A stretch of 61,669 nucleotides of DNA, filler included, from Dirinaria sp. TL-2023a (lineage: Eukaryota): assembly GCA_051941275.1 (NCBI GenBank). It is 4 parts of 4 records of this genome, joined end to end, with 100 filler letters (N's around TTAATTAATTAA, not from the genome) between each part and the next. Parts side by side here need not be neighbours in the genome. Positions count along the whole stretch, not along the records: positions 1 to 15,366 come from JAVEBF010000551.1; 3 more parts are not named here. One strand, written 5' to 3'. A program made the position numbers and the translations under genes. The notes beneath the pieces were generated by a model, which was given only the letters and a program-made list of their open reading frames with translations, ran no database searches and was not told the DNA's origin. Shown piece after piece: positions 1,857-54,389 of the stretch; positions within the stretch are counted from its first letter, which is position 1, and every line of letters starts with the position of its first letter.

Positions 1857-3901
1857 CTAAGGCCTCGCATCACCAATGGCAAGTACACTGTCCCATCGAT
1901 CAGAAGCAGTAAGAAGAATGTTCGGGATATGTCTCTCGCGTTGCTTTGTGCAGATTGATTAGCATAGACATTGTGTAACGACGAAGAACCTTACAAAAGC
2001 GTTGGAATCACCGGTCTCTTCGTACTATATGACAGGAACTTTTAGTCATCTCGATATCAGTTGATCTGCGGTTAAGAGGTGCTCTTACGTCGTTATATGC
2101 CCCTGACATTCTTTGACTCAGAAAACATTTGAACGGCATCATATCCTGCAGGATATACTCGTACAAGTTCTTTCCCGCCACGTCCGTGGCTGGTTTCAAG
2201 ACTGCGAACAACTCGTTGCGGACAATGCTCCATCCATCGTGCCCGTCTAATTTCAAGGCATAGAGGAGGTTTCCGATATGGTTCTGAATGAGAGCATGAT
2301 GAATCTTGGCCCAGACGCTTTTCAGATCATTCGTGCATCCCGGCGAAGTCACACGCAAGTTGATACCCTGTCGTTGCAATGTTGGAATATGGAGCTTCAC
2401 GCCTTCAAAATCGCGAATAGCAAATCCTCTGATCTGTCGAGACCGAAAACAGACGCGCATCAAGGTGTTTTGCCCATGAGCCTCGAAGCCAATCCCGTAC
2501 TGCAAAAGCGGTGGCAGCAGAAGCTGTAATAAGACGGAAACATATCTGCTCAACTTGTGATCAAGATATTTTCATGCGATCTTGATGACGAGTGAACAAA
2601 CCTCATAAACCAGTCTTGCTTCTCTTCAATCGTCTTGAGATGAAACACGATTTCCGCATGTGTATAGTTCGAACCAAGAGGTCGCTCCCCAAGTGCTCCC
2701 GCTATAATAAGTGTCTCACCATTTGCTCGCGCTCGTGGTTCCAGATCCTCTCGAATGATACAGGAAAGATTCCGTGCGATATCTTCGTCCTCCTGAGCCC
2801 CTGCTACCGCAGCAATCTCTCTGAACAGCCACAACTCCTCAGGCATTAGACTATACAACTGGTCTCTGACGATCTGACCTCCCAGTGTTTGACAGGGCCG
2901 GATCGCCCGGACATCTGAACCAATTTGGCAGGCAATGGAAAGCTTCAGATGATACGGAATGGCGAGTTCTGGTCGCAGGGTGAGAGTGCGCATCGAAGCC
3001 TGGGTGTCGGCACATTCCGCAATGGACTTGACAAGGATTGTGCTTGGGAAATAATGATAAACACATGGTAATTGGAGACTCAGACATGGAATAATAACTC
3101 TATCGTCGGGAGGATTCGCGATTCCTAATCGGGCCAGCAATGGTTCAAGCGTGTTCTCAAAGGGACCGAAAATACGCATCTCCGTCTTCAAGACTGATAC
3201 GAATGCCATCTTCGGTGATAGCATTTCCGGGAGGTCCTTGGGCGTCACAGGCTCCATCGGTGGCTGGGCACGGCATAACCGATGAAACTGCTTGCTATTA
3301 GACATACGAATTGTATATATTAGGCTCACAGAATCCGTACCGGATGAGTCGGGTGACCCAGAACTAGCGCTCTTTCCCACATGATAGACGGTGAAATTAG
3401 ATGTATCGGTCGTGGTGAGGAATGTATGTCCAACCATCGCTCTGTAGCTTTTCCTTCAGTAAAGCGAATACAGAAAGCTGACATGATATAGAGACCTTGA
3501 TTTGCGACGCTATTACGCATTTCTGCAGCCATCTCCTCCATGACCGGCTCGTCCACCTTGACCGAGAATATATGACGGTTTAGGAATCGAAATACAACAT
3601 CGGGAGCTAAAAGCTCCTCTCGGGTGTCCTTGTCAATTATGATAATCGGCGGCCGCAGCATCTCAGGCCGAATGAAGGAAACAACTTGACCTTTGTGACT
3701 ATAAACACATGCATTCGATGATAATGTGACTTGCACACATCTCTCCGTTCGGTGTGAGCCCCCTCGTATGCTGAACAAGCTGATGCATGACTGCTCCAGA
3801 GAATCAACTGCCGCACCGACTAGACGCTCGTTCACGATATGGGATAGTAGACGCTTCGTCGTCTCAACTAGAGCTTGCTCGTGTGTCGAGTGAGGCATCA
3901 T
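1857..3901 (-). CDS. IucA/IucC-family NRPS-independent siderophore (NIS) synthetase-like amide ligase, AnkE-like; multi-exon
   Basis: Exons from ORFs 3326-3901, 2550-3437 and 2008-2553 join through GT-AG introns. NIS motifs are present: ETTKRLL..VNE, GHPTHP, QASMRT, HLKLS, EAHGQN, IRDFEG. The last exon reads QRERHIPNIL..., with a TAG stop at 1857-1859. Confidence 0.88.
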
Positions 3902-4433
3902 GGCGAGGAGTATTGTATAATATTTCAGATCTCATCCATTTGCGGACCTACCTTAGTATTTGCTTCCTAGACGAGGGGCAGAGCACTGGAAGAGTGTGGG
4001 AATTTATATGCGGGGCATGTAGCAGTCAAGCAAGGTAGAACGCACGCATACAGTAAGCTAGGCGTGGATGGGACATACATCTAGCGTACAATTCCCGCTA
4101 CTACACTACACGTGTCCTGACATAATGTCATGCACTCTTATGTCGAGAATTTTTTATACGCTCCGCGAAAAACTTAACATACTCTCACCGATCCCAACAC
4201 ACCGCGGGGATAGTTTCCGTGCCTTTACAGACGGTGATGCGCCGCTCATAATGGCATAAGAAGGCTCTACGGAACACAGACAGGACCAAAAGCGCTGTAG
4301 GCGAAACTACTACTCATCTCACGCGTTTACACTGAAAACAGCCTCGATCTCTAACTTTACTTATCCACGGCTTGTACCTCTTCACATCCTGTCGTATTCT
4401 AAAAACCACGATCTCTTCAATTCGGTCGGCAGA

Positions 4434-6441
4434 CTAGGCCCAACGATCGTGCACAATCTTAACTTTTACCGGAGAATTGATGATTGGTGCGAACTGATCC
4501 GTAATTTGCATGTCGGACTCGGTAGTCTCGAATAATTCCATTTCGAAGCGCGAGAAGAAGACAGCCATAGTGGCGTAGAGCTCCATGTATGCAAGGCTAT
4601 TGACTCTTAGTCATGCGTCTTGAAACATATTACTGCAGAGGAACATACTTGGTAGCTATGCACTGGCGACGCCCTTTACTGAATGCAACGGCCCATTTCT
4701 GCAGATTCTGCGCCTCGGTGCCCATCCAACGCTCCGGGATGAAAGCATTGGGTTCTGGGAAGATCTTCTCGTCACGTTCTATCACAGGGTGCACCATTGA
4801 AATGATTGTCTGTTGTGAGGTTAGAATTTCGGCCCTTGCTTGGAAATGCTCAGACATACCCCTCCGGCAATCTGATAACCTCCAATCTCTATTCCGTCCT
4901 TGGGTACAATCCGGGGGAGACACCCAGGCACTGTATTGCTCAATCGAAGCGTTTCCTTCACAACGGCAGTCTAAGTATCAAGGGTCAACGACACATCAAG
5001 GTTACAGCACGAATTTGACGCACCAAGTAGGGCAAGGCCATTATCCTTCGGTGATCAAATTCCTGGATGAACGGCTTCGCTTCAAAGAGCTCTGCTTCCA
5101 ATTTCGCCTTGACTTCAGGATTGGTAAGAAGAAAGTATGTCGCAAAAGACAACACGTAACTGGTCGCCTCCATCCCAGCGACTATATAGTTGAAAACATC
5201 ATCGAAAAGCGGCGCAAAATCCAGTGGGGCCCCGGTTTTGCGTCTCGATTTTACGATCAGATCGAAGAATGTATCCTGGCCGTCGGGCTGCTTGCCTGAA
5301 TCATGAGCTAGAACTGCTTCATCCAACCACGACTTGAAAATCTGTTTACTAGTTACCCTCTATTCCCCAGAGAGACGAGAAAGTGGTCTAACAAGGACCA
5401 ACCTTTTGATAGCCAATTATCCCCGGTTGTATCCAGTCAACCACAAAGGCCGGGAGCGATATAATTGCCCAATTGACCACACTATAATAAATTCCTTCAA
5501 GTCGAATTAGTCGACCTTTCCTTCAGTGGAAGGTCAAGCCGTATGTACTCAGCCATGTAATGCCGGTAAACTTGTCGACACTACGCATCAACGGATGATA
5601 GTGATCTGCGTCTGCGCCAGGCGCACCGATCAAACCAAGGGATTTTCCAAACAAGAGTTGGCACACCATATCTGCCTAGTGCGGTCTATCAGCCCAAACC
5701 GTTTATACAACCGAGGATTAGATATAGCTACCGCAATTGCACGATAGACTCGCTGAATTACTGTGTGTTTTCCGTCCTTCCCTTGACGGGCCATCGACGC
5801 CGCCGCCTTGTCCAATTCCGATGCTATGGCCGGACCCAGACTGTCCACTGCCTTCCGGGAAAATAATGATACCACGGTATTGCGGTACATTTTGTGCTCT
5901 GCTGGATCGCAGATAGTGAGGATTGAGCCATCGATACCGAGTTTTTTATAGAAGGTGTGTGCTTTGGCAAAGTCTGTACCCGAATCGTAGATTCTATTAT
6001 CAGAGAGTCAATGACACATATCAGACCTAGTGACAGGGTGAAAAGCAGACGCGTGATAATAACTCGGATCTCCAATATGGACGTGATCAGTAGCGATACG
6101 AATCACCGGGGAATATGTATGTGCGTTAGTGATAATCATGAGGCCATGGCTGTTCACTTACTATATTGGCTGTGCATAGGGATCAATCTCTTAAAGTATC
6201 CATCACCTATGATGTTGTAGAAGGCTTCATATAAATGGCTTGCCGCAGCTACTTTGGGTCCTGGGATCCCGCTCAATTTGTGGAAGTAGACACGACGGAC
6301 ATAGTTGCAGAGGAGGCACACGAGGGCTATCAGACCAAGAGCCAGTCTTGGAAATCGAGTCACCGGGATTGAAAGATTGTCTTGCTGTAATATGCCCTTC
6401 CACTTGCCAGACATGATCGATATGGTATTGATTAGGTCCAT
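4434..6441 (-). CDS. Cytochrome P450, AnkB-like cluster tailoring enzyme; multi-exon
   Basis: N-terminal TM segment followed by IPGPK, I-helix AGMEAT, ETLR (ExxR) in the exon near 4950, PERW, and heme motif FSKGRRQCIA. The last exon LAYMELY...DRWA* ends at 4434. Confidence 0.92.
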
Positions 6442-7180
6442 GATCACACGTAGAATAACCTGAGGTCAGAATATAGGTGTTATCCTTCTTGATGTAGCCC
6501 TACCCAAGAAGTTTCCTGTATCACATCAAAAATCATGGGGATCTAATCCACCTGCAGTCCAAAGGTCGGCAGAAAGCTGCACTTTGTTTTCGTTTCGATG
6601 GTCGACAGAATTTGCGCAGTCACATCGGGCAAGCAGATTTAGCGTTTGGACATGCCTGTACGGGGTGTATATATGCCTTCTTTCTACGCTAAACATGCAT
6701 TTTTAATCCTGCACACTAGTATGCTGGTAGTTAGTCTTCGGGCCGTGCGCATAAATCGTTGCACACGGACTTCTCCGAGACTCAAATCATCATTGTATAT
6801 TGGTTTGAAAACTTTAGTCTTGAGGCATTAAAAGCACCGTTTCATTCGCTGGCTCTGTCCTCTAACGTTGACACACCTTTGCTTTAGTGTCGGGTACGCT
6901 TGTGCTATATGTAGCTATTCGCTTTGATGGAACACTTAAGCATTAGGATCTCGATAAGGTATCTTTGGACAATCACATCATTGTTCTAAGGTAAGAGGTT
7001 GTAATCTTGAAATCGTAGTTAAACTAATACCGTTGTCTTGATCAGGCTTGTGCATGTCCAAGAACTCCGCGGCACGGGAACACGAAAGATGACCCTACCT
7101 AGCGCATCAGAAGGCCTTTCAACTTTTCCTAGACCATATGAGGAGAACTTTTGAATTTTACCTAGACCGCATTAGGACGC

Positions 7181-8824
7181 TCACTGACTTGACTGACAGC
7201 AAGAATCAGAAATATTGACCGCTGAATCGACTAAGGTTCTGCTTTCTATAGAGCCTCTGGCTATACACACATCCAGTTGCTTGAATTGTTGTGTACGTGG
7301 ACCATTCTGTGAGCCAAGTTTTACTTCCGAAAAAAGCCTTTCCAACACCGCACCGGCACTCGATCCATAGAGCTTGCTGATCACATCAAAAGGGTCGAGC
7401 TTGTGAGATAATCCTGCGTGGGCTTCATCACTCATATCTCGGCTGGGTGGGAGCCTCGTGCATACGCCCATGGTTGGTCTTTCTGGAGATGGATCGTCGA
7501 GATACAAATTTGACCCGCTTTGGTTCCTGCTGATGAATACTCGTCGGCAGAGGTACACTTCCAACAAACTGAATGTAACTGGGTATTTGGAAGACAGCGC
7601 ATTCATTCTTTTCAGGACTTTTTGTGCTCGGGAGTAAATCCGACGCTCGACCCCGTCATCGATACCAATCAGTAATCGTCTTAGAGCTGTTCTCGCTATT
7701 GAGGATGATCTAGCCTTTTCGTTGTTGCGGGTAATATTGTTGCTCTCCACTAGAGCTGGTCTTACTACCTGAAAGACGTAGAATAGGTGTCCAAAGGATT
7801 TAAAGTCATGCGGCTTTTCCTTCTCCGGGATAAGGCAGAAGAAACCGGCCCATATAGGGTCGTAGGTACTCAGAGAGTGTAGGATGGAGTCCAAGGATGG
7901 TAGTACCCCTTTTACGAGGAATTGACGGAGGATACAACATACCCAGTCCGCCGAAGGAGATACTCGAACTTCAAATTCACGAGTCAGGATGTCCCTTTGT
8001 GACAGCTTGTAGTTGATATAGCGGCGAAAAACACCTGCAATTTGTTCGTGACGCTTCTCTACCGCTTCCATCCACTGCAAAGCTTGTTGAAAGGTGCAAT
8101 ATCCATCCCGCAGGCGCTGGTCTATGGACTGATAGTAGTGGAAGCTTGGGATATCCAGACAAAGGTTGAGCTGGCGCCCATGGTCTTGATGTGGTGTGGA
8201 TGTACGGCTGAGTAATGCCAAAAAATCCGCGATCACCGGGGCGGAACGGGCTATGTATTCCACTTCGTAAAGTGTTGGTCCAGCATATTGAAGTTTCTCT
8301 ATGTCAATGGGTCCGCCTTGAGGGATGCTGGATTGAAGGATCCGGGCGGAAAATAGGCACATGCCGGTAATGATGGTGAATTCGCCCTTGTAGAAGTCAT
8401 CCGGTACAATTTGGGCCATAGGACTCGAGAAGTGCAGGTAATTGGTGGAAGTCAACGCGAATCGCTTGAGTCCTGGAATACAGAAGTCAAACCGAACCTT
8501 TTCGAACCAAGTAATGCCCTCCGCAATGCGTGCAGGCCCTTCACAGGGTGACCCTCCCACCAGACCACTGTCAGTCACTCTGATCATCGTTGCCTCTGTG
8601 TGACGATGGTTGATCAGCTCAGCGGCTCTCATGGCGACCTTGTGTCCTTTGTAAACGGCCTTGCCATATTTCGCGTCAATAGTTTCATCGCTACATGATG
8701 AATGGAAATATCCCAGGATTTCTGACGAGCATTTCTTAGTGCAGAGTTCGACATCATGAAATGAGATGACGGCCGACTCTCCGGATTGACTCTGGATATC
8801 TGCAATGAGGACTGGTGTTTCCAT
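7181..8824 (-). CDS. Putative fungal tRNA-dependent arginine-containing cyclodipeptide synthase (RCDPS, AnkA/AvaA-like)
   Basis: Continuous 547-aa ORF with no recognisable classical domain. It carries TIITGMCLF, PTLYEVEYIAR, LDIPSFHYY and a C-terminal DDGVE (DDxxE) motif at 7646-7660 followed by RRIY. Size and neighbours (P450, NIS, PLP enzyme, OMT) match the ank cluster. Confidence 0.8.
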   Translation of the reverse strand: METPVLIADIQSQSGESAVISFHDVELCTKKCSSEILGYFHSSCSDETIDAKYGKAVYKGHKVAMRAAELINHRHTEATMIRVTDSGLVGGSPCEGPARIAEGITWFEKVRFDFCIPGLKRFALTSTNYLHFSSPMAQIVPDDFYKGEFTIITGMCLFSARILQSSIPQGGPIDIEKLQYAGPTLYEVEYIARSAPVIADFLALLSRTSTPHQDHGRQLNLCLDIPSFHYYQSIDQRLRDGYCTFQQALQWMEAVEKRHEQIAGVFRRYINYKLSQRDILTREFEVRVSPSADWVCCILRQFLVKGVLPSLDSILHSLSTYDPIWAGFFCLIPEKEKPHDFKSFGHLFYVFQVVRPALVESNNITRNNEKARSSSIARTALRRLLIGIDDGVERRIYSRAQKVLKRMNALSSKYPVTFSLLEVYLCRRVFISRNQSGSNLYLDDPSPERPTMGVCTRLPPSRDMSDEAHAGLSHKLDPFDVISKLYGSSAGAVLERLFSEVKLGSQNGPRTQQFKQLDVCIARGSIESRTLVDSAVNISDSCCQSSQ

Positions 8825-9289
8825 TGATTCTCTGCTTCTGCCCTAGGCAACAATATCGAATAACTCTATACCTGCTGTTTGTACAAGTTCCCAGGTTGCA
8901 TCGGCTCCCTTTCATCTTGCCCTTAAAGAACGCTAATCTGAGATCGGCACCCGAACCGTTAGAAAGGAATGACTCTGTAGTGAGACCCTGCATAGAGTCA
9001 ATTTTTGTGACAAATTGCCTCTATGCTACATAACCTTGCTCGCATTCGGAGTCACCGGAGTGGACATGTAGGCCGAAGACAGGGGACCCTGCACTGGCAT
9101 GTATATCTACGCTGGTTCCACGGGAGTACATCATATACGACTATGTCCGAGGGATATGCTGGAGGATGCTAGGTAAACTCATCTATTTGGGAATAGCCAG
9201 GAGATACGTATAGCTGGATGGATATTTAAGAATTGGATTTCTGGTCCATGAGAAGTGTGTTCCTTTCACCAAGCCCAGATTTTCACAAG

Positions 9290-10644
9290 ATGAAAGTCAA
9301 CAGTGCCAGCAAGAGTTATACTCGCATCAAGCAAAGATCCATCCCGGGCGTATGGATGAGATCTGGGACGTCAAAGGGTCTTTTCATCCGTAGAGAGCAT
9401 CTGCCAGAATCGCCAAAGGATTGGGAACCCATTTTGCTGGACGTTATGGGATCCAGCGACGGAAATCCACAACAAATTGATGGGATCGGAGGAGGGACGT
9501 CGACAACATCCAAGGTCGCTGTGGTCTCACAATCAACACATCCCGAGATAGATGTGGATTATACCTTCGTCCAAATCAACTCTTCAACTGGAAAAGCGGA
9601 GATGTGGGGGACGTGTGGGAATATGGTCGCTGGCGTTGGGCTTTTTGCTTTGGACGAAGGCCTGGTGAATCTGTCAGGCCAGCAGGAAATTGTAGGGCGA
9701 CGGCTTCCACTGTGACTGGGACTGCCACTGTGACTGAAACTGAAGAAAGGCGCTTATTGGTAATGCAGATTGAGATCAAGATTTTCGCCACTAACACAAA
9801 CCAGATGCTTAAGGTCACTGCCAAAGTTACGGCAGATGGCAAGGCGGAGGAAGGTCGAGACCACCGCATGTTAGCCAATCCGATTCCACCAGGAAGTCCA
9901 ATCAAAGTCACTTTTTGTGCGCCAAGCGGGAGCATCACCCGAGGACTCTTTCCATCTGGGGAATCGACCACACATCTCCCTATTGGGTGCCCGGACACCG
10001 GCGCTCCCCTCCTTGTCCGAGCTACCTTGATTGACTGCGCCAATCTTTTTGTCTTTGTGGATGCAGAATCGATGCCCTCACGATATCGCATCGAAGGCCC
10101 CTCCAGCAGAGCGTCCAAGGCGATTGTCGAAACGATCCGACGCAGAGCTTCGATCCACTTGGGGCTTTCCCGCACCTCAGACGAGGCTGCGCAGCGTCAA
10201 GGAATACCAAAGATCGCTATCGTCGCGTCTTCGGGCTCTTGGGCCAGCCGAGCGAGCTTGTCAACCTCGTCGGCAGACGTGGAGGTGACGGCATTCAGCA
10301 TGGGCAATTTGCATCCAACCTTCCAACTTACGGGAGCAATTTGCCTCGGAGCCGCCTTGAGTATGCCAAATACTGTTGCGTCAGACTGCTGGCGATCTGT
10401 CAGACCCAACACACCGCCTCCAGATAGCTCCGAAAGTCTTCTGGGGCGTACCGCCCCAGAGTCTAGAATGTGGCGCATCAAGCACCCTATGGGATGGATC
10501 GATTCTGAAATCTGTTGGTCCCGAAACGCGGGTGGGGAATTTACGATCGAGAAGGCGAGTGTTATTTGCACTGCTCGGAAACTCTTCCAAGGATCTGTAT
10601 TCTATCGCCAAAACTGCATGACCTGGCTTGAGCAGGAAAGGTAA
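9290..10644 (+). CDS. PrpF/AcnD-accessory family (methyl)aconitate isomerase, diaminopimelate-epimerase fold; 2 exons
   Basis: MRSGTSKG, QIDGIGGGTSTTSKVA, DVDYTFVQ, TCGNM (catalytic Cys), FSMGNLH and TARKLFQG. A phase-0 intron at 9692-9768 joins ORFs 9233 and 9604. An alternative ATG lies at 9248. Confidence 0.9.
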
Positions 10645-11964
10645 AAGTACTGTAGATGCTGCATACACCTCAGCACTACTTCGGCAAGTTGGTCATCGGG
10701 TCGCATATATGCATGAGGTATTGATGCTTTTGTAGATACACGTGGCATGAAGCATCGAAAGCACTTGATGTAGCTATGGCAAGTTGTAAAACCAGTGCTC
10801 CTCAGTATCTGTCTGATGTGACTATCTTCCCACAACAGCAAATCAGATCTTAGGCAGGGCTGAATCTACTTGGTAGCACATAGTCCGCGTACGAAGAGGT
10901 ATTGATTGGCCATCCGGACTGAATTTATACGGCGGCTATTTTAATGCCATAAGTCCTGATTGGCAAAATGCACGCTGAGACCGGGTCATTCAGGCGACTA
11001 CAGGCGAGCTTGGTTGAGCTCGGGCGTATCATGGGTACGAGTACTGTACGGATTACTCCGCATCTCGTATCAAATGAGCTGTGTCTGGATGATCATATTA
11101 TTGAAGTATGAGGAGGCATAGACATACATTGCATTCAATACTTGGTAAATACCTGAGGAAGGAAGGAAAAGGGGGATATTCTATGTAGCGGGATGGAAAT
11201 TCTGCAACGCCAAGACACTAACCATATCTGGTAAGATTGCCGAGACCAGCGCTATTGGAGCGCCTCAGACACACATTTCATGTACAACAACACATACTCG
11301 TATCTTATTTGCTGATCCTTTTAGGCGACATCTAGACTACTCTCTACATGTACATAAGGTAGCTAATCGCGCTACCTGAACGGCACTGGCGCCGCTAAAG
11401 TACCTAAGATAGCTTAGAGCTCAGGTACTACCGAGCTACCTTACCGCCGCCTTGGCAATGGGCGCTTCTCACCTACTTCTAGCTTTTTGCTTCCTGCTCC
11501 TCTTTGCTTCCTCAGAGCATATTATCACATTGAACCAATTCCTTCATTTGAATCCTTCCCGTGCATAGAGCTTTCAGCGCTAAGGTAAGAAGGCCGAGGA
11601 GGCTTGCGCTTTGCCGAGCCTGTCCGCCAAACTCCTCGTCGTCCAACTTTCACTTTAGCACTAAGGTGGGTTGCATGTAAGGTACGGGTATACCTACCTA
11701 CTACTACTAGTACCAACCGCGTATTTCCCCACATACCTGAATCACAACATTCAAACGGGGTCCCCGCAGCTAATGCAGCGATTAGTTGAAAAAAGCAATG
11801 ATCTCCGCCAAGACTCAAGATGGAATTCTAGTGTGGGGAAAAGAGTCCATCAGACGATTGTGTACGGAGGCAAAGCTCTGACGAATCTTCGAAAACTTCC
11901 AAATTCCGGCACTACTCAGCTTTCGCTACTGTTCTCGATCGGGATGACGTGATCGGTGCTCGCA

Positions 11965-12885
11965 TCAACCAAAATTGTCATTCCCACATTTCTTTTGCGA
12001 CTTCAACTTCACCAAGCTAAGCCCGTTGAATACCGGAAGCAAGATGACCTCCAAGCTAGGATGCTTGCACGGAATCAGCGATTGATCCATTGCGTTATGC
12101 CTCAATCCACCCGAAGCAAAGTAGTGGTCACTTACCTGCCGGGCCCATTTGTTGAACCCATCCACGCTCCTCGCTTGCTGAAGGTGGTGTCCCATCTCTG
12201 GCTCATCTGAAGCGGGGTTGCTGGGAGTCGTATCGGCCACGAGACCTTTATGGATAGCTAGTTATGACGTTAACTGATGCACTCTTAACGATGGATAGGC
12301 ATCCAATACTATCGTCGACAAGAACGATTCCATTTTCTGCAAGCAGACCTCTCTGGAGGATGATCTCGAAATACTCAATATACTCTGCTTTCCGAGCATC
12401 GATGTAGATGATATCAAATGGACCTTCTTCGATGCATTGCAAACTGTAATTCATCAACCGAAGATTCCTCTGTCCGGTCTCGTATGCTTCACTTACGTCT
12501 GAATTGCAAGGCCCTCCAAGAGATGAATCTTCCCTTCTGGATCGTACTTCCGGAAAGCAGCCTTGCATGCCTTAATCGAGCGAGGGCTAGCCTCACACGT
12601 CCAAACTTCCCCGCTAATGGACTTCATTCCTTCTTTCCATGCCAGAGCGCTATATCCCGTGAACGTCCCGATCTCAAGGACACGCCTCGCTTGACGGTCT
12701 CGGGCAAAGAAAACATAAAACTGTGCCTGAAGCGCGCCGCTCATCATCTGTGATGTGTCAAAATTATCGATGGTCCAAGCTTCCTGTTCTGCGAACATGG
12801 GATGGATATCGGTAGAATGACATCGGCAGTACTCGTCCACCGCGGCCGCGGTTTCCGGTGGAAATGGGAGGATGCTCTCAAACAT
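11965..12885 (-). CDS. SAM-dependent O-methyltransferase, CCoAOMT/COMT-like (Methyltransf_3), AnkF-like; 4 exons
   Basis: VDEYCRCHS, VLEIGTFTGYSAL, FDIIYIDARK, VDDT and EVILLPVFNGLSL across spliced ORFs 12493-13194, 12248-12568 and 11965-12240. The start is taken at MFESILP. Confidence 0.88.
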
Positions 12886-13548
12886 TGTGTACTTGGATAT
12901 AAATCTGCTGTTTGTGATGACAGAGGAACCTCCTACTTGTTGCTTACCTGCTACGCTGTCTATTGCGGAAGTTGAGGAGCCTAAGTCCGAAAGGAAACCC
13001 TTGCTGGAACAGCTGCAGGCCAGCCTTTTGAATGCGCTCGTGTAGGCATGCTGAAGGCGACAGCATGCGTGCCCAGGAGCATGGGTATGAGCATCCATGC
13101 TCGTTCGCATAGGGTTCTTAGTACGCGGCGACTCCGGCGTTCGACGATCGTGGTGGGTCAATTCGTTCTCATTGTACGCATAGCTTTCTACCAATCATCG
13201 AGCTTTAGACTGAAACGCTCAAGCCTGAAAAAAGGTTCGAAAGTTTACTTTTGCCAGAAGGTCTCCTGAGCAGAGGCTATGGTCAATGGTCCTGTTTTCT
13301 AGCTTCGCGATTTCTTGCCACCAATACAAGAGATTGTGAAGCTTTTCCGAAGCGGGGAAACCGTCTGTTGACGCACCTCGTGAAGACGAGACGGGTAGTC
13401 GGAAGGTGTCCGGCCATCGCCGAAAGTCTCCATACACGCGCTTTTAGCGTAGACTATGGGCGGATATGCCCGTCGCAAAGAATCAACAAAAAGGGAAGCT
13501 CAAAAGCACAGACCAATACTGTTAGACCATCGCAGATCCCATCCTCAC

Positions 13549-15366
13549 ATGATCAGGTTTGGGGTCCCCCTTGCAAACCACCCTTTACCCCCATGGGTGA
13601 TTAATAAGACAGAATACGTGTCTCCGCTCCTGGCGGCTACCATCAGTTCGAATTTACGGATTTTATCTAGTGGACACTCAAGGAAGAAAGACAACGCTCA
13701 CGGTGGATAATGGGGCAATACACATTTGAGAGATCCCGACCTTTGTGTGGGAACAAGACTCCCTTCGTCTCTCGATCATTGTTGTTGGGAGAGCCGATAC
13801 CACCTGATGACCCTCATGTATGTTGACGCCGTTCGAGTGATTATCTATCGAACTAACACTTGAACCGAATGCACGAGATAACAAATTTGTAGGCTTTGAG
13901 TGTTTCAATGCCAAGTTGGGAGTCCATACCCGCGTCCTTAGCTGGTGAAGAATGGACTATGGGCAAGATGCAGACAAGCTATCCCAGGTCTAGTTCGCAG
14001 ATATCAATTAATCATCAAACAGTCACTCTAACTTCCATTATATTAGATTCGATATTCACCGTTGCATCAAGCAGTTAATCGCCGCTGTTAGGGCAAGGCT
14101 CAAGTATTCGGCAGACATGGACTGTATGATTTTCCCCTCCGAAGAAGCTGCAGCGCGTTGCATGTCTACATTCAAGAACAAAGACTCAACTTTACCTCTC
14201 CGCTCGATCCGTTTCCTTTTATCCTCCCGAATTGATGCACCAGAAGTAGCTAAGTGGGCAAGCTTTTCTGCCGTGCTGTACCACCAAACCCTCGAATACG
14301 AAGCAGCTCAGTTCTGGGAACACTTTGGAGACGGCATTTCCAGCCGACACGCCCTCTTCTGCCTCGCACAGTTTCAATTCTTGGATTCTGAACCTGCGGA
14401 CTCCAGGACCGGGTTTTCGACGGCCGCCACAAGCTCGCATATCAGCTCAATGTCCTTCCCAGGTTGGACTAATTCGGCTTTGTGGGAGAAACGGTGCTGC
14501 CAATCTCTACTCGCAGAGTGTGCAACGTCCAGGGATCCACACCAGAAGCCTGTCAGCCCAGAAGATGTCTTCCTGTATCCCAATGGAATGAGCGCAATAA
14601 GCGCAATTGCACGGGGACTCGCTCACCAATCGGACAATTCCGAGGCTGTCATATATGGGTGGCCCTACGCCGGAACTGTTCCATGTATCAAAGCATGTGG
14701 ATACAGTCGTTTCGAAATGTATGGACACGGCACTGCAGAAGAGCTGGATCGACTGGAGTCCTTGTTGGCATCAGGCGCTCAGGTTGCGATCCTGTTCTGC
14801 GAAATACCATCGAATCCTCAGCTACAAACACCAGATTTACATCGAATTCGAGACCTCGCCGACAGATATCGATTTATTGTTGTTTGTGATGAAACGGTGG
14901 CAACGACCGTCAATGTGGATATCCTGCCCTACGTTGATGTCGTGATCAGCAGCTTGACCAAAATCTTCAGCGGGGCGTGTAATGTTATGGCCGGGAGGTA
15001 AGCCTCAACGAGCTAAAGCAATGGATTGGTAGTCTCTAATCCGATAGTCTTCTGCTCAATCCAAACTCGGAGCACTACGACCTGATCCGTTCCTGTCTGG
15101 AAGATCAATATGAGGATGTTCTTTTCCCCCAGGATGCAGTCACGCTAGCGCAAAACTGTTCCGACTTCATTCCCCGTGTGCGCCAATGCAACGAAACCGC
15201 CTTGAAAATTGCCAACATCTTCGCGGCTCATCCGTCAGTCGATCTTGTTTGCTATCCAACCACGGTATCAACATCGTCGCTCTACGAGCGATACCGTCGT
15301 GAAAAGGGTGGCTATGGGTATCTTCTCAGTATCGTTTTCCGCGAGCCGGGGAGTGCAGTCCGGTTC
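13549..15366 (+). CDS. PLP-dependent cystathionine gamma-synthase-like enzyme, AnkD-like; 3' end lost in the assembly gap
   Basis: LSVSMPSWE, SYPR, GDGISSRHA, VFLYPNGMSAI, FCEIPSNPQL, VVCDETV, PLP-lysine motif SLTKIFSG (14951-14962) and GGYGYLLS. The first exons and start are uncertain. Confidence 0.87.
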
Positions 15367-15466
15367 NNNNNNNNNNNNNNNNNNNNNNNNNNNNNNNNNN
15401 NNNNNNNNNNTTAATTAATTAANNNNNNNNNNNNNNNNNNNNNNNNNNNNNNNNNNNNNNNNNNNN
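15367..15466. other. Assembly gap with synthetic TTAATTAATTAA linker
   Basis: N-run / TTAATTAATTAA / N-run; the same structure occurs at ~30832-30931 and ~46262-46361. Confidence 0.97.
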
Positions 15467-15684
15467 TATTTGGGGGGCGGGGAACGGGGGCTGGGGGGCA
15501 ACGGAGATAGTTGAGGCAGTGATGGGATAGATTTTGATCTGGCTTTTGGTAAAGTTGAAGATAAGAGGTATCTCTGCTTTGAAGAAGCTTGTAGCCGCTG
15601 ATATATAGTTCTTGCAAATATTACGTACTTGTCAATTTTTCTTGTTCTTTCGTTCATCTCTTTAAAAAATAAATTTCTTGTCGG

Positions 15685-15721
<37 letters not shown>

Positions 15722-20653: not shown

Positions 20654-22658
20654 ATGGACAGGCTCGGCGCTTGGAACGTGGCCCGTAGATACGAGAAGCG
20701 ATCGCTCCTGATTGCCATCAATCTTGTTGCTGGCTTGTCGATTTTCTTTTTCGGATATGATCAAGGTGTCATGGGCGGTGTCAATGGCACTCGCCATTAC
20801 GCCGAGACAATGGGATTCGGTTACTGGGATGCGAGCAAGGGCTTGGTCCATGTGTCAAAACCTCTCCTAGAAGGCGGCATCGTCAGTTGAAAGACTCCAT
20901 CTGAAATTGGATCGGCGGCTAACATGATCCAGGTCGCCGTTTACTACCTGCCCGGTACTCTCTTCGGCGCTTTCCTGGGTGGTTGGTTTGGAGACAGATA
21001 TGGACGGATCAAGACCATAGGTGTAGCTTCTGCTTGGGCCATTGTTGGTGCAACGCTACAGTGTTCTGCTCAAAACGCGAAATGGATGTTCTGCGGTACG
21101 CAAGACTGGTTGCACTGCTGAAATGGTTCTGTGGCTAATGCGACATAGCTCGTACGCTGAATGGTATTGGTACGGGTATCCTGAACGCCATCACACCAGT
21201 GTGGGCAACCGAGACGGCCGAGCATACCTCACGGGGTCAATTTGTGTCCATTGAGTTTACTCTCAATATTTTTGGTGTCGTCGCAGCTTACTGGATTGAA
21301 TAGTAAGTTTGGCCTCTCCGGTGACAGATTGGTTGCTCACTTCCTCTCAGTGGATGCAGCTTCTACGGGAACAAGGAGTCATCTTTCATTTGGAGATTCC
21401 CAATTGCCTTCCAGATCGCGCCTTTGATCCTGCTTCTCTGTGTGATATGGATTATGCCTGAATCGCCTCGATGGCTTATCAAAGTTGGTCGCGAAGAGGA
21501 GGGTCGATACATTCTTGGTCGACTTCGTGGGGAGGGAGGCGCAGACGAGGGCAGAGCAGAGGCAGAGTTCCAAGACATCAGGAACATTGTGGAACTTGAA
21601 AGGAAGACCTCCAAACAGCAAACTTACTTCGCGATGTTCACAGGCTGGGGATCTGGGAAGCTCCACACTGGGCGGCGTGTTCATTTGGTTGTCTGGCTCC
21701 AGATTCTCCAGGAGTGGATTGGCATTGCTGGGATCACCATTTATGGGCCAACAATCTTTACCATCGCCGGAATTTCAGCAGAACAGCGTCAATGGGTCTC
21801 TGGTCTCAATGATATTACTTACATGGTATGTCAAAGCACCCCACCATCTAAGAAATTAAGATGTTGACAGCCGCAGATTGCGACGCTTCTCTGCGTCTTT
21901 ACCTTGGACAAAATTGGCCGGCGATGGACCCTCTATTGGGGATCTGTCGGTCAAGGTATCTGTATGTTTGCCGCTGGCGGTCTGGCCCGTGCTACGCAAA
22001 ACAAGGTGAATGCTGGTGAAGACCCCAGCGGTGTAGGTGGTGCAGCTACATTTTTCGTCTTCTTGTTCACGGCCATTTTCGGAGCCACTTGGCTCACAGT
22101 ACCCTGGCTGTACCCGGCTGAAATCTTCCCTCTGGAAGTTCGTGCAAGGGGCAACGCTTGGGGCGTTGTTGGTTGGTCTGTCGGCAACGGATGGACGGTA
22201 TGTTTGCCTTCTTGATCCTGCCCTGTAGGGTTCGTATCTCGCATCGAGCTAATCATCTTATTACCCGATAGGTGCTTCTTTTGCCGACCATGTTCTCGGC
22301 TCTGAATGAGAAGAGTCTTTACGTTTTTGGAGCGGTCAATGCTGCGACCATCGTGATTGTGTGGGCTCTCTATCCCGAAACCAATCAGCGCACTCTGGAA
22401 GAAATGAATTTGGTTTTCGCCTCGGACAGTATCTGGAATTGGGAGGCAGAGAGGAACTATGCATTACTCAAGGAGCAGAATCCTGAGCTCGTGCAAGCGG
22501 CGCAACGAGGCAACAGTATTGTCACAGATCCGGAGTCTGGGGCTCCGGTGCGGTCTGGTAGCCTTGTCCCGAGGAACATGAGCTTAGATGCAAAGACGTT
22601 TGAGAAGTCCGGCTCTGACGAATTCGAAACCGAGAAGCCTCCGGTGAAACACAATTAA
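20654..22658 (+). CDS. MFS sugar porter (STL1-like sugar/polyol:H+ symporter); multi-exon
   Basis: FFGYDQGVMGG, GDRYGRIK, PESPRWL, QEWIGIAGITIY, DKIGRR, PWLYPAEIFP and YPETNQRTLEEM. Confidence 0.93.
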
Positions 22659-25638: not shown

Positions 25639-27413
25639 ATGCTGGCAATACTTCAGGTTTTCTGGCTACTCTCTTGTACGACCGTCTTCTATGCCTTGTA
25701 TCGCGCTGTATACAACAGATACTTTCACCCACTCCGTCATTTCCCAGGCCCTTTCTGGAGTTCTGTAACCGACTTCATCAAGCTATGGATCTTACACACC
25801 AAGCAAGCTCACACCCTTGGTCTCGAGTGTCATAAGAAGTACGGACCCGTAGTCAGAGTCGCGCCAAACCTTCTCGCTATTGATGATCCACTGCTGCTGC
25901 CTCAGGTCTACCATCGACGCGTAGATAAGACAGACGTCTATACTGCGGCCGTTTTGGGCGAGCTAGCTACTGCTTTTCAAACCCTCAAGCATGAAGAGCA
26001 CGCGGCCAAAAGAAAGCGCGTAGCCAATTCTGTGTGTTCTTTCATTTCTCAGCTTGCTGCAGACCCTACAGAGCAAACCCTTCAATCAAAAACCACTGCT
26101 GATGACATTCAGTTTACACTCACCAATCTCAAGCCGCTCGAGGGCCAGATCGATGAACGTATTATGCAATGGACGAATGTATTGAACGATAGATTTGCAC
26201 GAAAAAGTAAAAAGATGGATTTTGCTGCGTGGGTCCAGTGAGTCTTCTATTCCAGAGAGACCTCGTAAAACAACTAGATTGAGTTATTCAGATGGTTTGC
26301 GTACGATACCATTTCTCAACTTTCATTTGGAGAGCCTCTCGGCTTTGTCAAAGAAGGTCGAGATGTTGGGAGACTGATCGAGAACTTCCACGATATGGCT
26401 CCCTTCGCTGCCGTTGTCGGAGCACTGCCATGGCTTGCAAAGCCGTTCCTCGAGAATCCTATTACGCGCCACTTTGCCATGCCTAAGCCCGGAGACAGTA
26501 CGGGAACAGGGAAAATTATGGTCGTAAGACTTCTGCCTTTCTTAGAAGCAGAAGTTTCCTACTAAGATGAGTGATTGCAGTTCAGAGATAATCTCCTCGA
26601 AGAGCGTCTCAAGGACGCTAGGCCCAACCAAAAAGGAGACTTTCTTGATAACATACTCGCCTCTAAGAATGATGATGGATCCCCCATGACCATTGAGGAA
26701 GTGAAGTCCGAATGCTTTATACTTATGGTTGGTGCAGCCGACACGACTGCTGCTTTCTTCTGCGGCTTCGTCAACTTCGTCATGCAAACACCTGGTGTGT
26801 ATGAAAAGCTGGTCAGCGAAATCGACGACTTCGACCGGCGTGGCCTGCTTGCTCACCCTGTTGCCCTCTTCGAGCAGGTGAAACAAATGCCATACTTCAA
26901 AGCCTGTCATCTGGAGATAACGCGTTTCTATCCATCAACTCCGATAAATCTACCAAGATATGTCTCAGAAGGAGGTATGGATCTATATGGGATGCACGCC
27001 CCTGCTGGAACAGAAATTGGCGCCAACCCCTACGTTGTACAGCGAAATAAGGCCGTGTTCGGTGAAGACGCAGATCTATTCCGTCCTGAGCGCTGGCTTG
27101 AAGACGAAGCGAAGTCGGCATACATGGAGAAATACATTATGACCTGGGGGTACGGTACCCGAACCTGCTTGGGCAAGAACATCGCGTTAATGGAAACTTT
27201 CAAGCTCATGAATCACGTAAGTCTGCCATGATATCTTGTTATCTCAAGTAGTTCGCTAATTCCACAATGCAGTTTTTCCGGGTGTTCAAACCGAGCATCT
27301 GTAATCCTGAGAACCCGTGGAAAGCAGAAAATCTGGGGTTACTAGTGCATTATGACATGTGGATCAACCTTGCACCCCGGCAGATGAATTTTGGAGAGGC
27401 CAGCAAAGGCTAG
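25639..27413 (+). CDS. Cytochrome P450 (pisatin demethylase/benzoate hydroxylase-like clan), standalone
   Basis: N-terminal TM plus HFPGP, KYGPVVRVAPN, GAADTT, EITR, FRPERW and heme motif WGYGTRTCLG. The last exon ends with TAG at 27411-27413. Confidence 0.92.
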
Positions 27414-30831: not shown

Positions 30832-30931
30832 NNNNNNNNNNNNNNNNNNNNNNNNNNNNNNNNNNNNNNNNNNNNTTAATTAATTAANNNNNNNNNNNNN
30901 NNNNNNNNNNNNNNNNNNNNNNNNNNNNNNN
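30832..30931. other. Assembly gap with synthetic linker
   Basis: N-run / TTAATTAATTAA / N-run. Confidence 0.97.
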
Positions 30932-46261: not shown

Positions 46262-46361
46262 NNNNNNNNNNNNNNNNNNNNNNNNNNNNNNNNNNNNNNN
46301 NNNNNTTAATTAATTAANNNNNNNNNNNNNNNNNNNNNNNNNNNNNNNNNNNNNNNNNNNN
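46262..46361. other. Assembly gap with synthetic linker
   Basis: N-run / TTAATTAATTAA / N-run. Confidence 0.97.
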
Positions 46362-53289: not shown

Positions 53290-54389
53290 GCCAAGGTAGC
53301 CTCACTTCCCGTGGCGATTTGAGCATTAAAATTGTGCGGAAGACGAGACTCGCATTGCTTATCTAGGAATCTCGACTATGTACGATGGCCTTTCGATGAT
53401 TGGAAAGGTGTGCGCAATCACTCCATGGATCGAGTCTCGGAGTCGATAGGGAAAGGAAGGCACGGTACTCTGGAAAGATTGATATGATTAATGTAGCCGG
53501 ACGAGAGGAAGCGGATGAAAGAGAGAGAAGGATGTCTAGCGATTCACATTCCATACAGAGATTCCAACCACGAGTCTCATGTTTTTGTTCCGAGGTTGCG
53601 TACGAATCCCATCCTTGGCTTTAAGTCTCTTGGCTCTTGGCAGCTTGGAAGCGGGTGTCGCGGTCTTGGCGAATGCAGGGTCTTTCTCGGAACAACGAGA
53701 ACAAGGGGGTAGGCTCGTAGGCTCGTAGGATAAGCTATTAAATGTACGCAGCGAGGCAGCGCAGCTCTACATCCCCAAGGATTTTGGGTCGTGCTCAAAG
53801 CGTTACTCAAGATAGTGACTAAAACATACGAATGCGGTTTTTTTTTTTTTTTTTTTTGGGTGCTTCTGGGAAATAGTCTGGGTGCATACTGTACATTATA
53901 CAAGTACTGTAGTGGACGCTCTTGGCCATAAATGCTTGGCAGATTGGTAGATATTATAAAAGTACATAGAGATCCTGCTTCTTTGGTAAATCGATTCCCT
54001 GGTCATACTAGCATTGCGCATACCTAGAGAGACCGCAGTCGTAGCTGACAGAACATAAGCTGGCAAAGCAGCGATAGAAAGCGAAGGAGGGTTCCGTGCC
54101 AGCCAGACAATGGCCGAAGATGGCCAAGTATTACCCAGATATCCACCAACTCCGGCATTCAAGACTCGGAGGTAAGATTAATTAAGCGCAAATTATGGCA
54201 AGTCAGCAGGCAGCGCATGATGGACTCTTCCTTCCTCGGAATCACGCCCCTCCGTCGATGGCCTAGACCTGTCTTGATATATATGTCGTGGTACAACGTT
54301 ACGCTTCCCCAAACGCCCGGGATATCTTCGTCCCTGATACAATGGTTGCAACTGGTAGCAAGAAAAGCACCTCGAACTGACAGTGTCCG

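What the first reader, a model, noticed from the sequence alone, without database searches (positions are those of the whole stretch)
1857..15366. Core-less biosynthetic cluster: a PrpF-containing variant of the ank (NK13650) RCDPS pathway
Seen in the sequence: six tightly packed genes (NIS ligase, P450, 547-aa orphan, PrpF, O-MT, CGS-like PLP enzyme), including two divergent pairs, with no PKS, NRPS or terpene synthase. Known from memory (Yee et al. 2023, Aspergillus thermomutatus ank cluster): AnkA RCDPS makes cyclo-Arg-Tyr, P450 AnkB desaturates it, FMO AnkC hydroxylates, PLP enzyme AnkD installs homoserine by gamma-replacement, NIS AnkE adds citrate, AnkF methylates and ATP-grasp AnkG adds Asp. 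Five of those seven roles have counterparts here, plus an extra PrpF. Inference: the cluster makes a distinct, probably undescribed Arg-diketopiperazine-homoserine-tricarboxylate. Standard tools would likely label it only as a siderophore locus.
Basis: partly seen in the sequence, partly recalled or inferred. Interest (0 to 1): 0.93.

Follow-up and report, generated by a model that had tools for sequence, protein, structure and literature searches.

The report
Ank-type arginine-cyclodipeptide cluster with PrpF
A short contig from a lichen-forming fungus carries a relative of the known gene cluster for the NK13650 enzyme inhibitors, built around a tRNA-dependent arginine cyclodipeptide synthase and holding one extra isomerase gene, but the contig ends inside the cluster, so its full content and product remain unknown.

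Summary
The locus is not core-less. The 547-aa "orphan" is an arginine-containing cyclodipeptide synthase (RCDPS). It is 47-51% identical to AnkA over its full length and keeps the family's Cys, DDxxE and Tyr residues. The NIS ligase is 55% identical to AnkE. The PLP enzyme belongs with CndF (E 8e-84), far from primary-metabolism enzymes. The methyltransferase resembles the cation-dependent O-methyltransferase PaMTH1. PrpF is intact and keeps the Lys and Cys that align with the SK and CGN motifs of solved PrpF. It shares a 465-bp divergent promoter with the RCDPS gene.

Three caveats apply:
- The window is four contigs joined by linkers. The cluster's contig ends at 15366, inside the PLP gene. 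Absence of the AnkC-like FMO, the AnkG-like ATP-grasp enzyme and the ABC transporter therefore cannot be claimed.
- antiSMASH 7 already detects RCDPS clusters.
- No second RCDPS locus with a PrpF was found.

Verdict: an ank-family cluster from a new lineage, with a possibly functional extra PrpF. Interest is moderate.

The parts
1857..3901 (-). NIS synthetase gene (AnkE-like). Exons 3901-3341, 3287-2602, 2545-2089, 2024-1995 and 1943-1857 (stop included). 606 aa, with IucA_IucC and FhuF-like C-terminal domains.
   Evidence: Pfam. tblastn of AnkE (P0051) covers residues 8-561. The C-terminal exon was placed by alignment to three AnkE-group proteins. Global identity to AnkE is 324 of 585 aligned positions, 55.4%.
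4434..6441 (-). Cytochrome P450 gene with 9 exons and 530 aa by my model. Seven of its eight introns are GT-AG. Intron 1 (6161-6112) has a GTAAGT donor but no in-phase AG acceptor.
   Evidence: Pfam p450 on two pieces. Read by eye: an IPGP hinge, AGMEAT, KETLR, PERW and the haem motif FSKGRRQCIA. The model gives a continuous reading frame. Its 3' half is 54-62% identical to a P450 beside an RCDPS gene on metagenome contig L012.
7181..8824 (-). RCDPS gene, the core enzyme. Single exon, 547 aa (P0001), stop codon at 7181-7183.
   Evidence: No Pfam family and no PDB sequence match at E<=1. 37 relatives found. AnkA aligns over residues 1-518 at 46.6%, or 249 of 492 positions globally. C156, Y349, D389, D390, E393 and Y486 are conserved in 33, 32, 32, 32, 33 and 29 of 33 aligned sequences.
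8825..9289 (.). 465-bp divergent promoter region shared by the RCDPS and PrpF genes. It holds CGGTGACTCCG at 9047-9057 (minus strand).
   Evidence: Coordinates. Motif (found post hoc, weak).
9290..10644 (+). PrpF-family isomerase gene. Exons 9290-9691 and 9769-10644 with a 77-nt intron. 425 aa (P0038).
   Evidence: Pfam PrpF. The identical 425-aa protein is in the database and maps to these exons. Best solved relative is Shewanella PrpF 2pvz, E 1.5e-44, with its 'SK' Lys and 'CGN' Cys aligned.
11965..12885 (-). Class-I cation-dependent O-methyltransferase gene (Methyltransf_3). Exons 12885-12497, 12443-12310 and 12257-11965. 271 aa.
   Evidence: Pfam. Introns read, open frame checked. First exon aligns over residues 1-127 to PaMTH1 (4qvk, 4ymg) at E 1e-28.
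12886..13709 (.). 824-bp divergent promoter region of the MT and PLP genes. It holds CGGCGACTCCG at 13126-13136 (plus strand).
13710..15366 (+). CndF/AnkD-type PLP gamma-replacement enzyme gene. Exons 13710-13817, 13893-13987, 14047-14997 and 15048-15366. 491 aa are present, and the 3' end is lost at the contig end.
   Evidence: Pfam Cys_Met_Meta_PP. CndF (8zif, 568 aa) hits at E 8.1e-84 with its residues 71-379 aligned. The next best hit is BesB at 6e-17, and primary-metabolism-type enzymes score 8e-9 or worse. The SLTK lysine motif is kept. Exons.
15367..15466 (.). Artificial joint (N44-TTAATTAATTAA-N44) between contig 1 and the next contig. It marks the true end of what is known about the cluster.

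Best explanation
Contig 1 of the window holds most of an ank-family biosynthetic gene cluster. The source of the identical PrpF protein labels it as coming from a metagenome-assembled genome of a lichen-forming Lecanoromycete.

Proposed mechanism, all by analogy:
1. The 547-aa RCDPS uses Arg-tRNA and a second aminoacyl-tRNA to make cyclo(Arg-Xaa). Xaa is most likely Tyr, as for AnkA.
2. The P450 oxidises the diketopiperazine or its aromatic side chain.
3. The PaMTH1-like O-methyltransferase methylates a phenolic or catechol hydroxyl.
4. The CndF/AnkD-type PLP enzyme turns O-acetyl-homoserine into a vinylglycine-type electrophile and attaches the C4 amino-acid unit by gamma-replacement.
5. The AnkE-like NIS ligase adenylates a tricarboxylic acid and joins it as an amide to the new amine.
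6. PrpF is an extra pathway enzyme. It is divergently transcribed from the RCDPS gene and keeps the Lys and Cys that align with the SK and CGN motifs of solved PrpF. It performs an allylic double-bond shift on an unsaturated tricarboxylate, as Adi1 does on aconitate, so the acid moiety probably differs from the citrate of the NK13650s.

Shown here: the family assignments, homology to AnkA and AnkE, conserved catalytic residues, gene order and intact reading frames. Inferred: every chemical step, Tyr as the second residue, and the role of PrpF. I give about 0.9 that this is an ank-family RCDPS cluster and about 0.45 that PrpF acts in the pathway. The confidence given for this explanation is for the combined statement.
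For: RCDPS:
- E 3.2e-132, 47% identity and 91% coverage to the protein named ankA.
- It falls in a 17-sequence clade (SH-aLRT 99) that contains AnkA.
- Cys156, Tyr349, Asp389, Asp390, Glu393 and Tyr486 are conserved. They fit the C193, DDXXE, Y392 and Y515 reported for AvaA (whole text read). The mapping is by spacing and is my inference.

NIS:
- 55.4% global identity to the protein named ankE.
- In T. rugulosus the NIS relative (locus tag ..01406) and the RCDPS relative (..01400) are six locus tags apart. RCDPS-NIS linkage therefore recurs.

Other genes:
- PLP: CndF at E 8e-84, against 8e-9 or worse for solved primary-metabolism-type enzymes.
- MT: PaMTH1 at E 1e-28.
- P450: a 54-62% identical P450 lies beside a 55-67% identical RCDPS on contig L012.
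- PrpF: intact 425-aa frame. The Lys and Cys align with the SK and CGN motifs of solved PrpF; that these are the catalytic residues is recalled. It lies between the core gene and the MT/PLP pair, 465 bp from the RCDPS start.

From papers:
- A PrpF-family aconitate isomerase works inside a fungal metabolite cluster, Adi1 in the Ustilago itaconate cluster (passages).
- AnkA makes cyclo-Tyr-Arg, AnkE is proposed to form the amide in NK13650B, and AnkG adds Asp (figure legends).
Against: - The contig ends inside the PLP gene and has only 1.8 kb left of the NIS gene. The gene set is incomplete.
- No hydroxylase is on the contig to make the catechol that a PaMTH1-like O-MT would suggest.
- Orthology of the P450, MT and PLP genes to AnkB, AnkF and AnkD was not tested.
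- P0001 lies outside the tight AnkA subclade (quick tree only; the careful search did not finish). Tyr specificity is therefore not secured.
- No second RCDPS locus with PrpF was found. None of 14 metagenome RCDPS loci has a PrpF, NIS, MT or PLP relative in its flanks. Those RCDPS genes are mostly only 33-38% identical, and several flanks are short.
- I looked up ten relatives from the PrpF search: the eight best non-self hits and two longer fused forms. Seven clusters carried names. None of the named ones comes from a species in the RCDPS hit list.
- The first P450 intron lacks a canonical acceptor. This could mean assembly error or decay.
- No expression data were available.
Confidence: 0.5

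Rival explanations
1. This is a plain orthologue of the ank cluster that makes NK13650-type compounds. The AnkC-like FMO, AnkG-like ATP-grasp and ABC transporter genes lie just beyond the contig end. PrpF is a passenger gene with an unrelated role, for example in catabolism of unsaturated or aromatic-derived acids.
For: The contig is cut inside the PLP gene. The published cluster lists NIS, ABC, HP, PLP, FMO, MT and ATP-grasp genes and no PrpF. The closest PrpF relatives, at 43-54% identity, come from fungi that are not in the RCDPS hit list. Some relatives are fused or merged with a fungal transcription-factor domain, which fits a separate small regulon. A PaMTH1-like O-MT implies a hydroxylase that must lie elsewhere.
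Against: PrpF sits in the middle of the cluster and shares its promoter region with the core gene. The same 11-nt CGG..CCG element occurs exactly only in the two divergent promoters of the cluster within 61.7 kb. That element was found post hoc, and I estimate its chance at about 0.06. The RCDPS lies outside the tight AnkA subclade.
Confidence: 0.3
2. The cluster is decaying or silent. The P450 cannot be spliced correctly, so no mature product is made.
For: Intron 1 of the P450 has a consensus GTAAGT donor and a CTAAC branch site, but no AG until about 6073. Using that AG would delete the conserved SPVIRIATDHVHIGD segment.
Against: All other reading frames and the other seven P450 introns are intact. 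A single base error in a metagenome assembly or a rare non-canonical acceptor would explain the defect equally well. Catalytic motifs are kept in all six genes.
Confidence: 0.1
3. This is an NRPS-independent siderophore locus, as an IucA/IucC-based rule would label it.
For: IucA_IucC and FhuF-like domains are present. The closest named proteins carry the automatic name 'siderophore'.
Against: The closest characterised relative, AnkE, is an amide ligase of the NK13650 pathway. No hydroxamate- or diamine-forming gene was seen on the contig. The neighbours are an RCDPS, a CndF-type PLP enzyme, an O-MT and a P450.
Confidence: 0.03

Closest known systems
ank cluster of Aspergillus thermomutatus (NK13650 pathway; Yee et al. 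2023, read only through the highlight PMC11610942 and legends in PMC12568646)
   Same: The RCDPS core is 47-51% identical to AnkA and the NIS ligase is 55% identical to AnkE. A Cys/Met-family PLP enzyme and a methyltransferase are in the same cluster, and there is no PKS, NRPS or terpene synthase. A P450 in the ank cluster (AnkB) is recalled only. The gene list read names none.
   Different: A PrpF gene lies inside the cluster. No FMO, ATP-grasp or ABC gene is on the 15.4-kb contig, which may be truncation. The source's label says Lecanoromycete, whereas all named RCDPS relatives are Eurotiomycetes or Sordariomycetes. The RCDPS lies outside the tight AnkA subclade.
Fungal RCDPS family (AnkA, AvaA and homologues)
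   Same: No Pfam domain, about 500-550 aa, and the invariant Cys, DDxxE and Tyr residues.
   Different: The second amino acid is not known. tRNA dependence was not tested.
CndF (PDB 8zif), a fungal PLP-dependent gamma-replacement enzyme of the citrinadin pathway
   Same: E 8e-84 over CndF residues 71-379, with the SLTK lysine motif kept. Use of O-acetyl-homoserine as gamma-electrophile is recalled knowledge of this family.
   Different: The nucleophile here would be a cyclodipeptide hydroxyl, as recalled for AnkD, rather than a carbon nucleophile. The C-terminal 70-80 residues are missing from the contig.
PrpF family: Shewanella PrpF (2pvz), Mii (3g7k) and Ustilago Adi1 aconitate-delta-isomerase
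   Same: Full-length PrpF domain. The Lys and Cys align with the SK and CGN motifs of solved PrpF. Adi1 is a fungal precedent for a PrpF enzyme inside a metabolite cluster acting on a tricarboxylate.
   Different: Only about 35-40% like the solved bacterial enzymes and 54% like its best fungal relative. The substrate is unknown. I found no PrpF reported in a cyclodipeptide pathway (as far as listed).
PaMTH1 (PDB 4qvk, 4ymg), the Podospora cation-dependent O-methyltransferase
   Same: The first 127 residues align end to end at E 1e-28, and the family is Methyltransf_3.
   Different: About 30 residues longer by my model. The second metal-site motif reads DD where I recall DN in plant CCoAOMTs (recalled, not tested).

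Membership tests
RCDPS (arginine-containing cyclodipeptide synthase) | Sequence homology to AnkA/AvaA over the full length | tested here: met
   E 3.2e-132, 47% identity and 91% coverage to the protein named ankA. tblastn covers AnkA residues 1-518.
RCDPS (arginine-containing cyclodipeptide synthase) | Catalytic Cys, DDXXE and two Tyr residues (C193, Y392 and Y515 in AvaA) | tested here: met
   C156 in 33 of 33, D389 and D390 in 32 of 33, E393 in 33 of 33, Y349 in 32 of 33 and Y486 in 29 of 33 aligned sequences. AvaA itself was not in hand, so the mapping to AvaA numbers is by spacing.
RCDPS (arginine-containing cyclodipeptide synthase) | No recognisable conserved domain | tested here: met
   No Pfam family and no PDB sequence match at E<=1.
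RCDPS (arginine-containing cyclodipeptide synthase) | tRNA-dependent formation of an Arg-containing cyclodipeptide | not testable with these tools
   Needs expression or an enzyme assay.
ank-type (NK13650) gene cluster | AnkE-type NIS ligase linked to the RCDPS gene | tested here: met
   55.4% global identity to ankE. The two genes lie about 3.3 kb apart on the same strand.
ank-type (NK13650) gene cluster | AnkD-type PLP gamma-replacement enzyme | tested here: inconclusive
   CndF-family membership is clear (E 8e-84).
ank-type (NK13650) gene cluster | Methyltransferase (AnkF) and P450 (AnkB) | tested here: inconclusive
   Both enzyme classes are present. Orthology was not tested. The P450 role is recalled, since the gene list read names no P450.
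ank-type (NK13650) gene cluster | FMO (AnkC), ATP-grasp (AnkG) and ABC transporter | tested here: inconclusive
   None is on contig 1 or on the other three contigs of the window. The contig ends inside the cluster and no whole genome is held.
PrpF family isomerases | PrpF domain with the Lys and Cys of the solved enzymes (their catalytic role is recalled) | tested here: met
   Pfam E 4.5e-41 and 1.6e-31. 2pvz at E 1.5e-44, with 'SK' and 'CGN' aligned.
NIS siderophore synthetase locus | NIS ligase together with genes for a hydroxamate or diamine chelating unit | tested here: not met
   No such gene was found in the scanned pieces of the contig. The nearest characterised relative is not a siderophore enzyme.

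The most novel reading that the evidence does not exclude
PrpF has been recruited into an arginine-cyclodipeptide pathway. It converts a TCA-cycle aconitate isomer, or an aconityl intermediate, so that the AnkE-like ligase installs an unsaturated tricarboxylate instead of citrate. A lichen fungus would then make a new NK13650-type compound, possibly a histone acetyltransferase inhibitor like the NK13650s. It would also be the first PrpF-family enzyme in cyclodipeptide biosynthesis.
Probability: 0.2. Interest if true: 0.6.

Novelty: new variant of a known kind. Interest (0 to 1): 0.42.

Why it matters
NK13650 A and B inhibit the p300 histone acetyltransferase at 11 and 22 nM (passages). Natural variants of that scaffold are therefore of pharmacological interest. 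The ank pathway is the founding example of the fungal tRNA-dependent RCDPS family.

A relative in a lichen-forming Lecanoromycete extends the family beyond the named relatives, which are all Eurotiomycetes or Sordariomycetes. An embedded PrpF gene gives a concrete, testable idea for how the acid building block could be varied. Lichen fungi are hard to culture, so a compact cluster of six or more genes with defined gene models is a practical target for heterologous expression.

It is not a new kind of system. The core enzyme, the ligase and the PLP logic are all known, and current genome-mining software has a rule for arginine-containing cyclodipeptide clusters.

Tried and rejected
- Whole genome of the window: not held. 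The rest of the cluster could not be sought.
- Primary paper (Yee et al. 2023): not held by PMC id or DOI.
- Public sequencing runs for 5400-15366: none was listed, and no RNA holder was listed.
- Earlier findings of this scan: nothing by sequence or by words.
- ESM Atlas for the MT exon and the PLP exon: family-level names only, Methyltransf_3 and Cys_Met_Meta_PP.
- Metagenome scan with the RCDPS alignment: 270 pattern matches gave 14 loci. By tblastn at E<=1e-5, none of the 14 has a NIS, PrpF, MT or PLP relative, and one (L012) has a P450 relative. Thirteen of the 14 RCDPS genes are only 33-38% identical, three pairs are near-duplicates, and five loci are under 6 kb. This says little about close relatives.
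- Fused PrpF proteins of 961-1072 aa: I hoped for an NIS-PrpF fusion. The extra domain is a fungal transcription-factor domain.
- Shared promoter words: no 7-, 8- or 9-mer is common to all four promoter regions.
- Automatic longest-ORF splice search: it over-fitted with 40-44-nt introns, so I replaced it with reading by eye.
- tRNA genes on the contig: none.
- Pfam on 29 small ORFs of the flanks (1-1990 and 10605-11949): nothing above noise.
- PDB sequence search with the NIS middle exon: no hit at E<=0.001.
- Careful maximum-likelihood tree: not finished within the time limit, so the quick tree was used.
- Literature: among the 10 listed of 25 papers holding at least two of the terms lichen, RCDPS, RCDP and arginine-containing cyclodipeptide, none holds 'lichen'. 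The PrpF / fungal / gene-cluster search listed 3 papers, none on cyclodipeptides.

Full report
**What the window is.** The 61,669-base window is not one stretch of genome. Three joints of the form N44-TTAATTAATTAA-N44 lie at 15367-15466, 30832-30931 and 46262-46361. They divide the window into four pieces of about 15.3 kb each. The protein database records the finding's own proteins on a contig of exactly 15,366 bases. The finding (1857-15366) therefore fills one short contig, and its right end is a contig end. No whole genome is held for the window.

The other three pieces carry unrelated genes: a sugar transporter, another P450, a CAP protein, DUF3431, a G-alpha subunit, a septin-like protein, PTPLA, a P4-ATPase and a homeodomain protein. 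None holds an FMO, ATP-grasp or ABC gene. The source's name for the identical PrpF protein marks it as coming from a metagenome-assembled genome of the lichen genus Dirinaria, which is a Lecanoromycete.

**The observation.** Pfam on the open frames confirms five of the six gene families. The 553-codon frame matches nothing. I built gene models from homologues and splice signals.

| Gene | Coordinates and strand | Size |
|---|---|---|
| NIS | 1857-3901, minus, 5 exons | 606 aa |
| P450 | 4434-6441, minus, 9 exons | 530 aa |
| RCDPS | 7181-8824, minus, 1 exon | 547 aa |
| PrpF | 9290-10644, plus, 2 exons | 425 aa |
| O-MT | 11965-12885, minus, 3 exons | 271 aa |
| PLP | 13710-15366, plus, 4 exons | 491 aa, then cut |

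The PrpF model is identical to the database protein P0038.

The two divergent pairs are real: RCDPS/PrpF at 465 bp and MT/PLP at 824 bp. The flanks 1-1856 and 10645-11964 gave no family match, and the contig has no tRNA gene.

**The orphan is the core enzyme.** A search with the 553-codon frame found 37 relatives. One is the A. thermomutatus protein CDV56_108942 at E 3.2e-132, 47% identity and 91% coverage. UniRef names it 'Arginine-containing cyclodipeptide synthase ankA'. AnkA aligns over residues 1-518 to 8824-7310, with 249 identical of 492 aligned positions.

In an alignment of 33 family members, several residues of the window's protein are conserved:

| Residue | Conserved in |
|---|---|
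| Cys156 | 33 of 33 |
| Tyr349 | 32 of 33 |
| Asp389 | 32 of 33 |
| Asp390 | 32 of 33 |
| Glu393 | 33 of 33 |
| Tyr486 | 29 of 33 |

These fit the C193, DDXXE, Y392 and Y515 reported as essential in AvaA (whole text of the highlight paper). The correspondence is my inference from spacing, because AvaA itself was not in hand. There is no Pfam family and no PDB sequence match, as described for this family.

In a quick maximum-likelihood tree the protein pairs with an unnamed JGI protein (SH-aLRT 98). Both sit in a 17-sequence clade (99) that also holds AnkA and its close relatives, but outside that tight subclade. The careful search did not finish. Tyr as the second residue is therefore the best guess, not a result.

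**The ligase.** The middle NIS exon is 60% identical to a 90%-identity cluster of 14 proteins. One member is the A. thermomutatus protein that UniRef names 'NRPS-independent siderophore synthetase-like protein ankE'. My 606-aa model is 55.4% identical to AnkE (324 of 585 positions).

The T. rugulosus relative of the ligase has locus tag TRUGW13939_01406. The T. rugulosus relative of the RCDPS has TRUGW13939_01400. The RCDPS-NIS pairing therefore recurs in another genome. AnkE is described as the enzyme proposed to make the amide bond in NK13650B, AnkA as making cyclo-Tyr-Arg, and AnkG as adding aspartate (figure legends).

**The other tailoring genes.**
- **PLP enzyme.** It matches CndF (8zif) at E 8.1e-84 over CndF residues 71-379 and keeps the SLTK lysine motif. 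The next hit is BesB at 6e-17, and solved primary-metabolism-type enzymes score 8e-9 or worse. It belongs to the fungal gamma-replacement clade, not to housekeeping cystathionine enzymes. About 70-80 C-terminal residues are lost at the contig end.
- **Methyltransferase.** Its first exon aligns end to end with PaMTH1 at E 1e-28. I recall PaMTH1 as a cation-dependent O-methyltransferase for vicinal dihydroxy aromatics. That would call for an aromatic hydroxylase, and none is on the contig.
- **P450.** It has the usual hinge, I-helix, ExxR, PERW and haem motifs. A metagenome contig, L012, has a 54-62% identical P450 next to a 55-67% identical RCDPS.

I could not reach the AnkB, AnkD or AnkF sequences, and the primary paper is not held. 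Orthology of these three genes is untested. The gene list I could read names NIS, ABC, HP, PLP, FMO, MT and ATP-grasp, and no P450.

**PrpF.** The gene is intact. Its best solved relative is Shewanella PrpF (E 1.5e-44). The lysine of 'SK' and the cysteine of 'CGN' are aligned. That these are the catalytic residues is recalled. The alignment also supports the 77-nt intron of the database model.

A scan of 1.84 billion representatives gave 2831 relatives at E<=0.001 and 324 at E<=1e-30. The best non-self hit is 54% identical. I looked up ten relatives: the eight best non-self hits and two longer fused forms. Seven clusters carried names: Penicillium paradoxum, P. canescens/P. arizonense, Mollisia, A. 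aculeatus, Niveomyces, A. caelatus/A. pseudocaelatus and Thozetella. None of these species appears in the RCDPS hit list. None of the 14 metagenome RCDPS loci has a PrpF relative in its flanks, although those are mostly distant RCDPS genes with short flanks.

So PrpF inside an RCDPS cluster is, as far as I could look, unique to this contig. That cuts both ways. For a pathway role: it lies between the core gene and the MT/PLP pair and shares the core gene's promoter region. An 11-nt CGG..CCG element (CGGYGACTCCG) occurs exactly only at 9047 and 13126, one in each divergent promoter, within the whole 61.7 kb. I derived that motif from these two sites, and I estimate its chance at about 0.06. A fungal precedent exists: Ustilago Adi1, a PrpF-family aconitate-delta-isomerase, works inside the itaconate cluster (passages).

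**How it most likely works.** By analogy with the ank pathway:
1. The RCDPS makes cyclo(Arg-Xaa) from aminoacyl-tRNAs.
2. The P450 and the O-MT decorate the side chain or ring.
3. The PLP enzyme adds a homoserine-derived unit by gamma-replacement.
4. The NIS ligase caps its amine with a tricarboxylate.

All known PrpF-family reactions are allylic shifts in unsaturated di- or tricarboxylates. The simplest role for PrpF is therefore to supply or convert an aconitate-type acid for the ligase. All these steps are inferred. Only the family assignments, conserved residues and gene arrangement are shown.

**Problems and rivals.**
- The cluster is cut, so the missing FMO, ATP-grasp and ABC genes may simply lie beyond 15366. 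The product may then be an ordinary NK13650 with PrpF as a passenger.
- The first P450 intron has a GTAAGT donor and a CTAAC branch site, but no AG where the frame needs it. The only downstream AG would delete a conserved 15-residue segment. This may be an assembly error, a rare acceptor or early decay.
- A siderophore reading is unlikely, given the nearest characterised relative and the neighbours.
- No expression data could be obtained.

**Novelty and score.** The core enzyme family, the ligase and the PLP logic are published. antiSMASH 7 has a rule for arginine-containing cyclodipeptide clusters, so this locus would not be missed or labelled only as a siderophore locus. What is new is the lineage and the embedded PrpF. 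The source's label says Lecanoromycete, whereas all named relatives are Eurotiomycetes or Sordariomycetes. I rate it a new variant of a known kind, of moderate interest (0.42). Its high score, the 'core-less' framing and the claim of a distinct product go beyond the evidence.

Noticed in passing
window 15367-15466, 30832-30931, 46262-46361: The window is a chain of four contigs of about 15.3 kb joined by N44-TTAATTAATTAA-N44 linkers. Features must not be read across these joints.
   Followed up: yes
window 6161-6112 (minus strand): The first intron of the cluster's P450 has a consensus donor and branch site but no AG acceptor in the required phase. The next AG, near 6073, would remove the conserved SPVIRIATDHVHIGD segment. 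This could be an assembly error, non-canonical splicing or early decay.
   Followed up: partly
window 9047-9057 (-) and 13126-13136 (+): CGGYGACTCCG occurs exactly only twice in 61.7 kb, once in each divergent promoter of the cluster. It may be a Zn2Cys6-type regulator site. It was found post hoc and is weak.
   Followed up: partly
L012:1-3577: A metagenome contig holds a P450 (54-62% identical) directly upstream of an RCDPS (55-67% identical) on the same strand. This is the closest DNA-level relative I found. Its RCDPS match is split into three pieces, which suggests introns or frameshifts, unlike the single-exon gene here.
   Followed up: partly
P0075 (1072 aa) and P0084 (961 aa), relatives of the PrpF protein: In Aspergillus caelatus/pseudocaelatus and Thozetella, a PrpF domain follows a fungal-specific transcription-factor domain in one predicted protein. 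This is either a real fusion or merged gene models.
   Followed up: partly
window 48178-53301 (-): A single open frame of 1708 codons encodes a phospholipid-translocating P4-ATPase on the fourth contig. It is unrelated to the finding.
   Followed up: no
window 26575-27228 (+) and 21325-22655 (+): The second contig carries another P450 (E 1e-40) and a sugar transporter. No link to the cluster is evident.
   Followed up: no
window 15667-15717: A long T run (about 35 T) lies near the start of the second contig, just after a G-rich stretch at 15467-15500.
   Followed up: no
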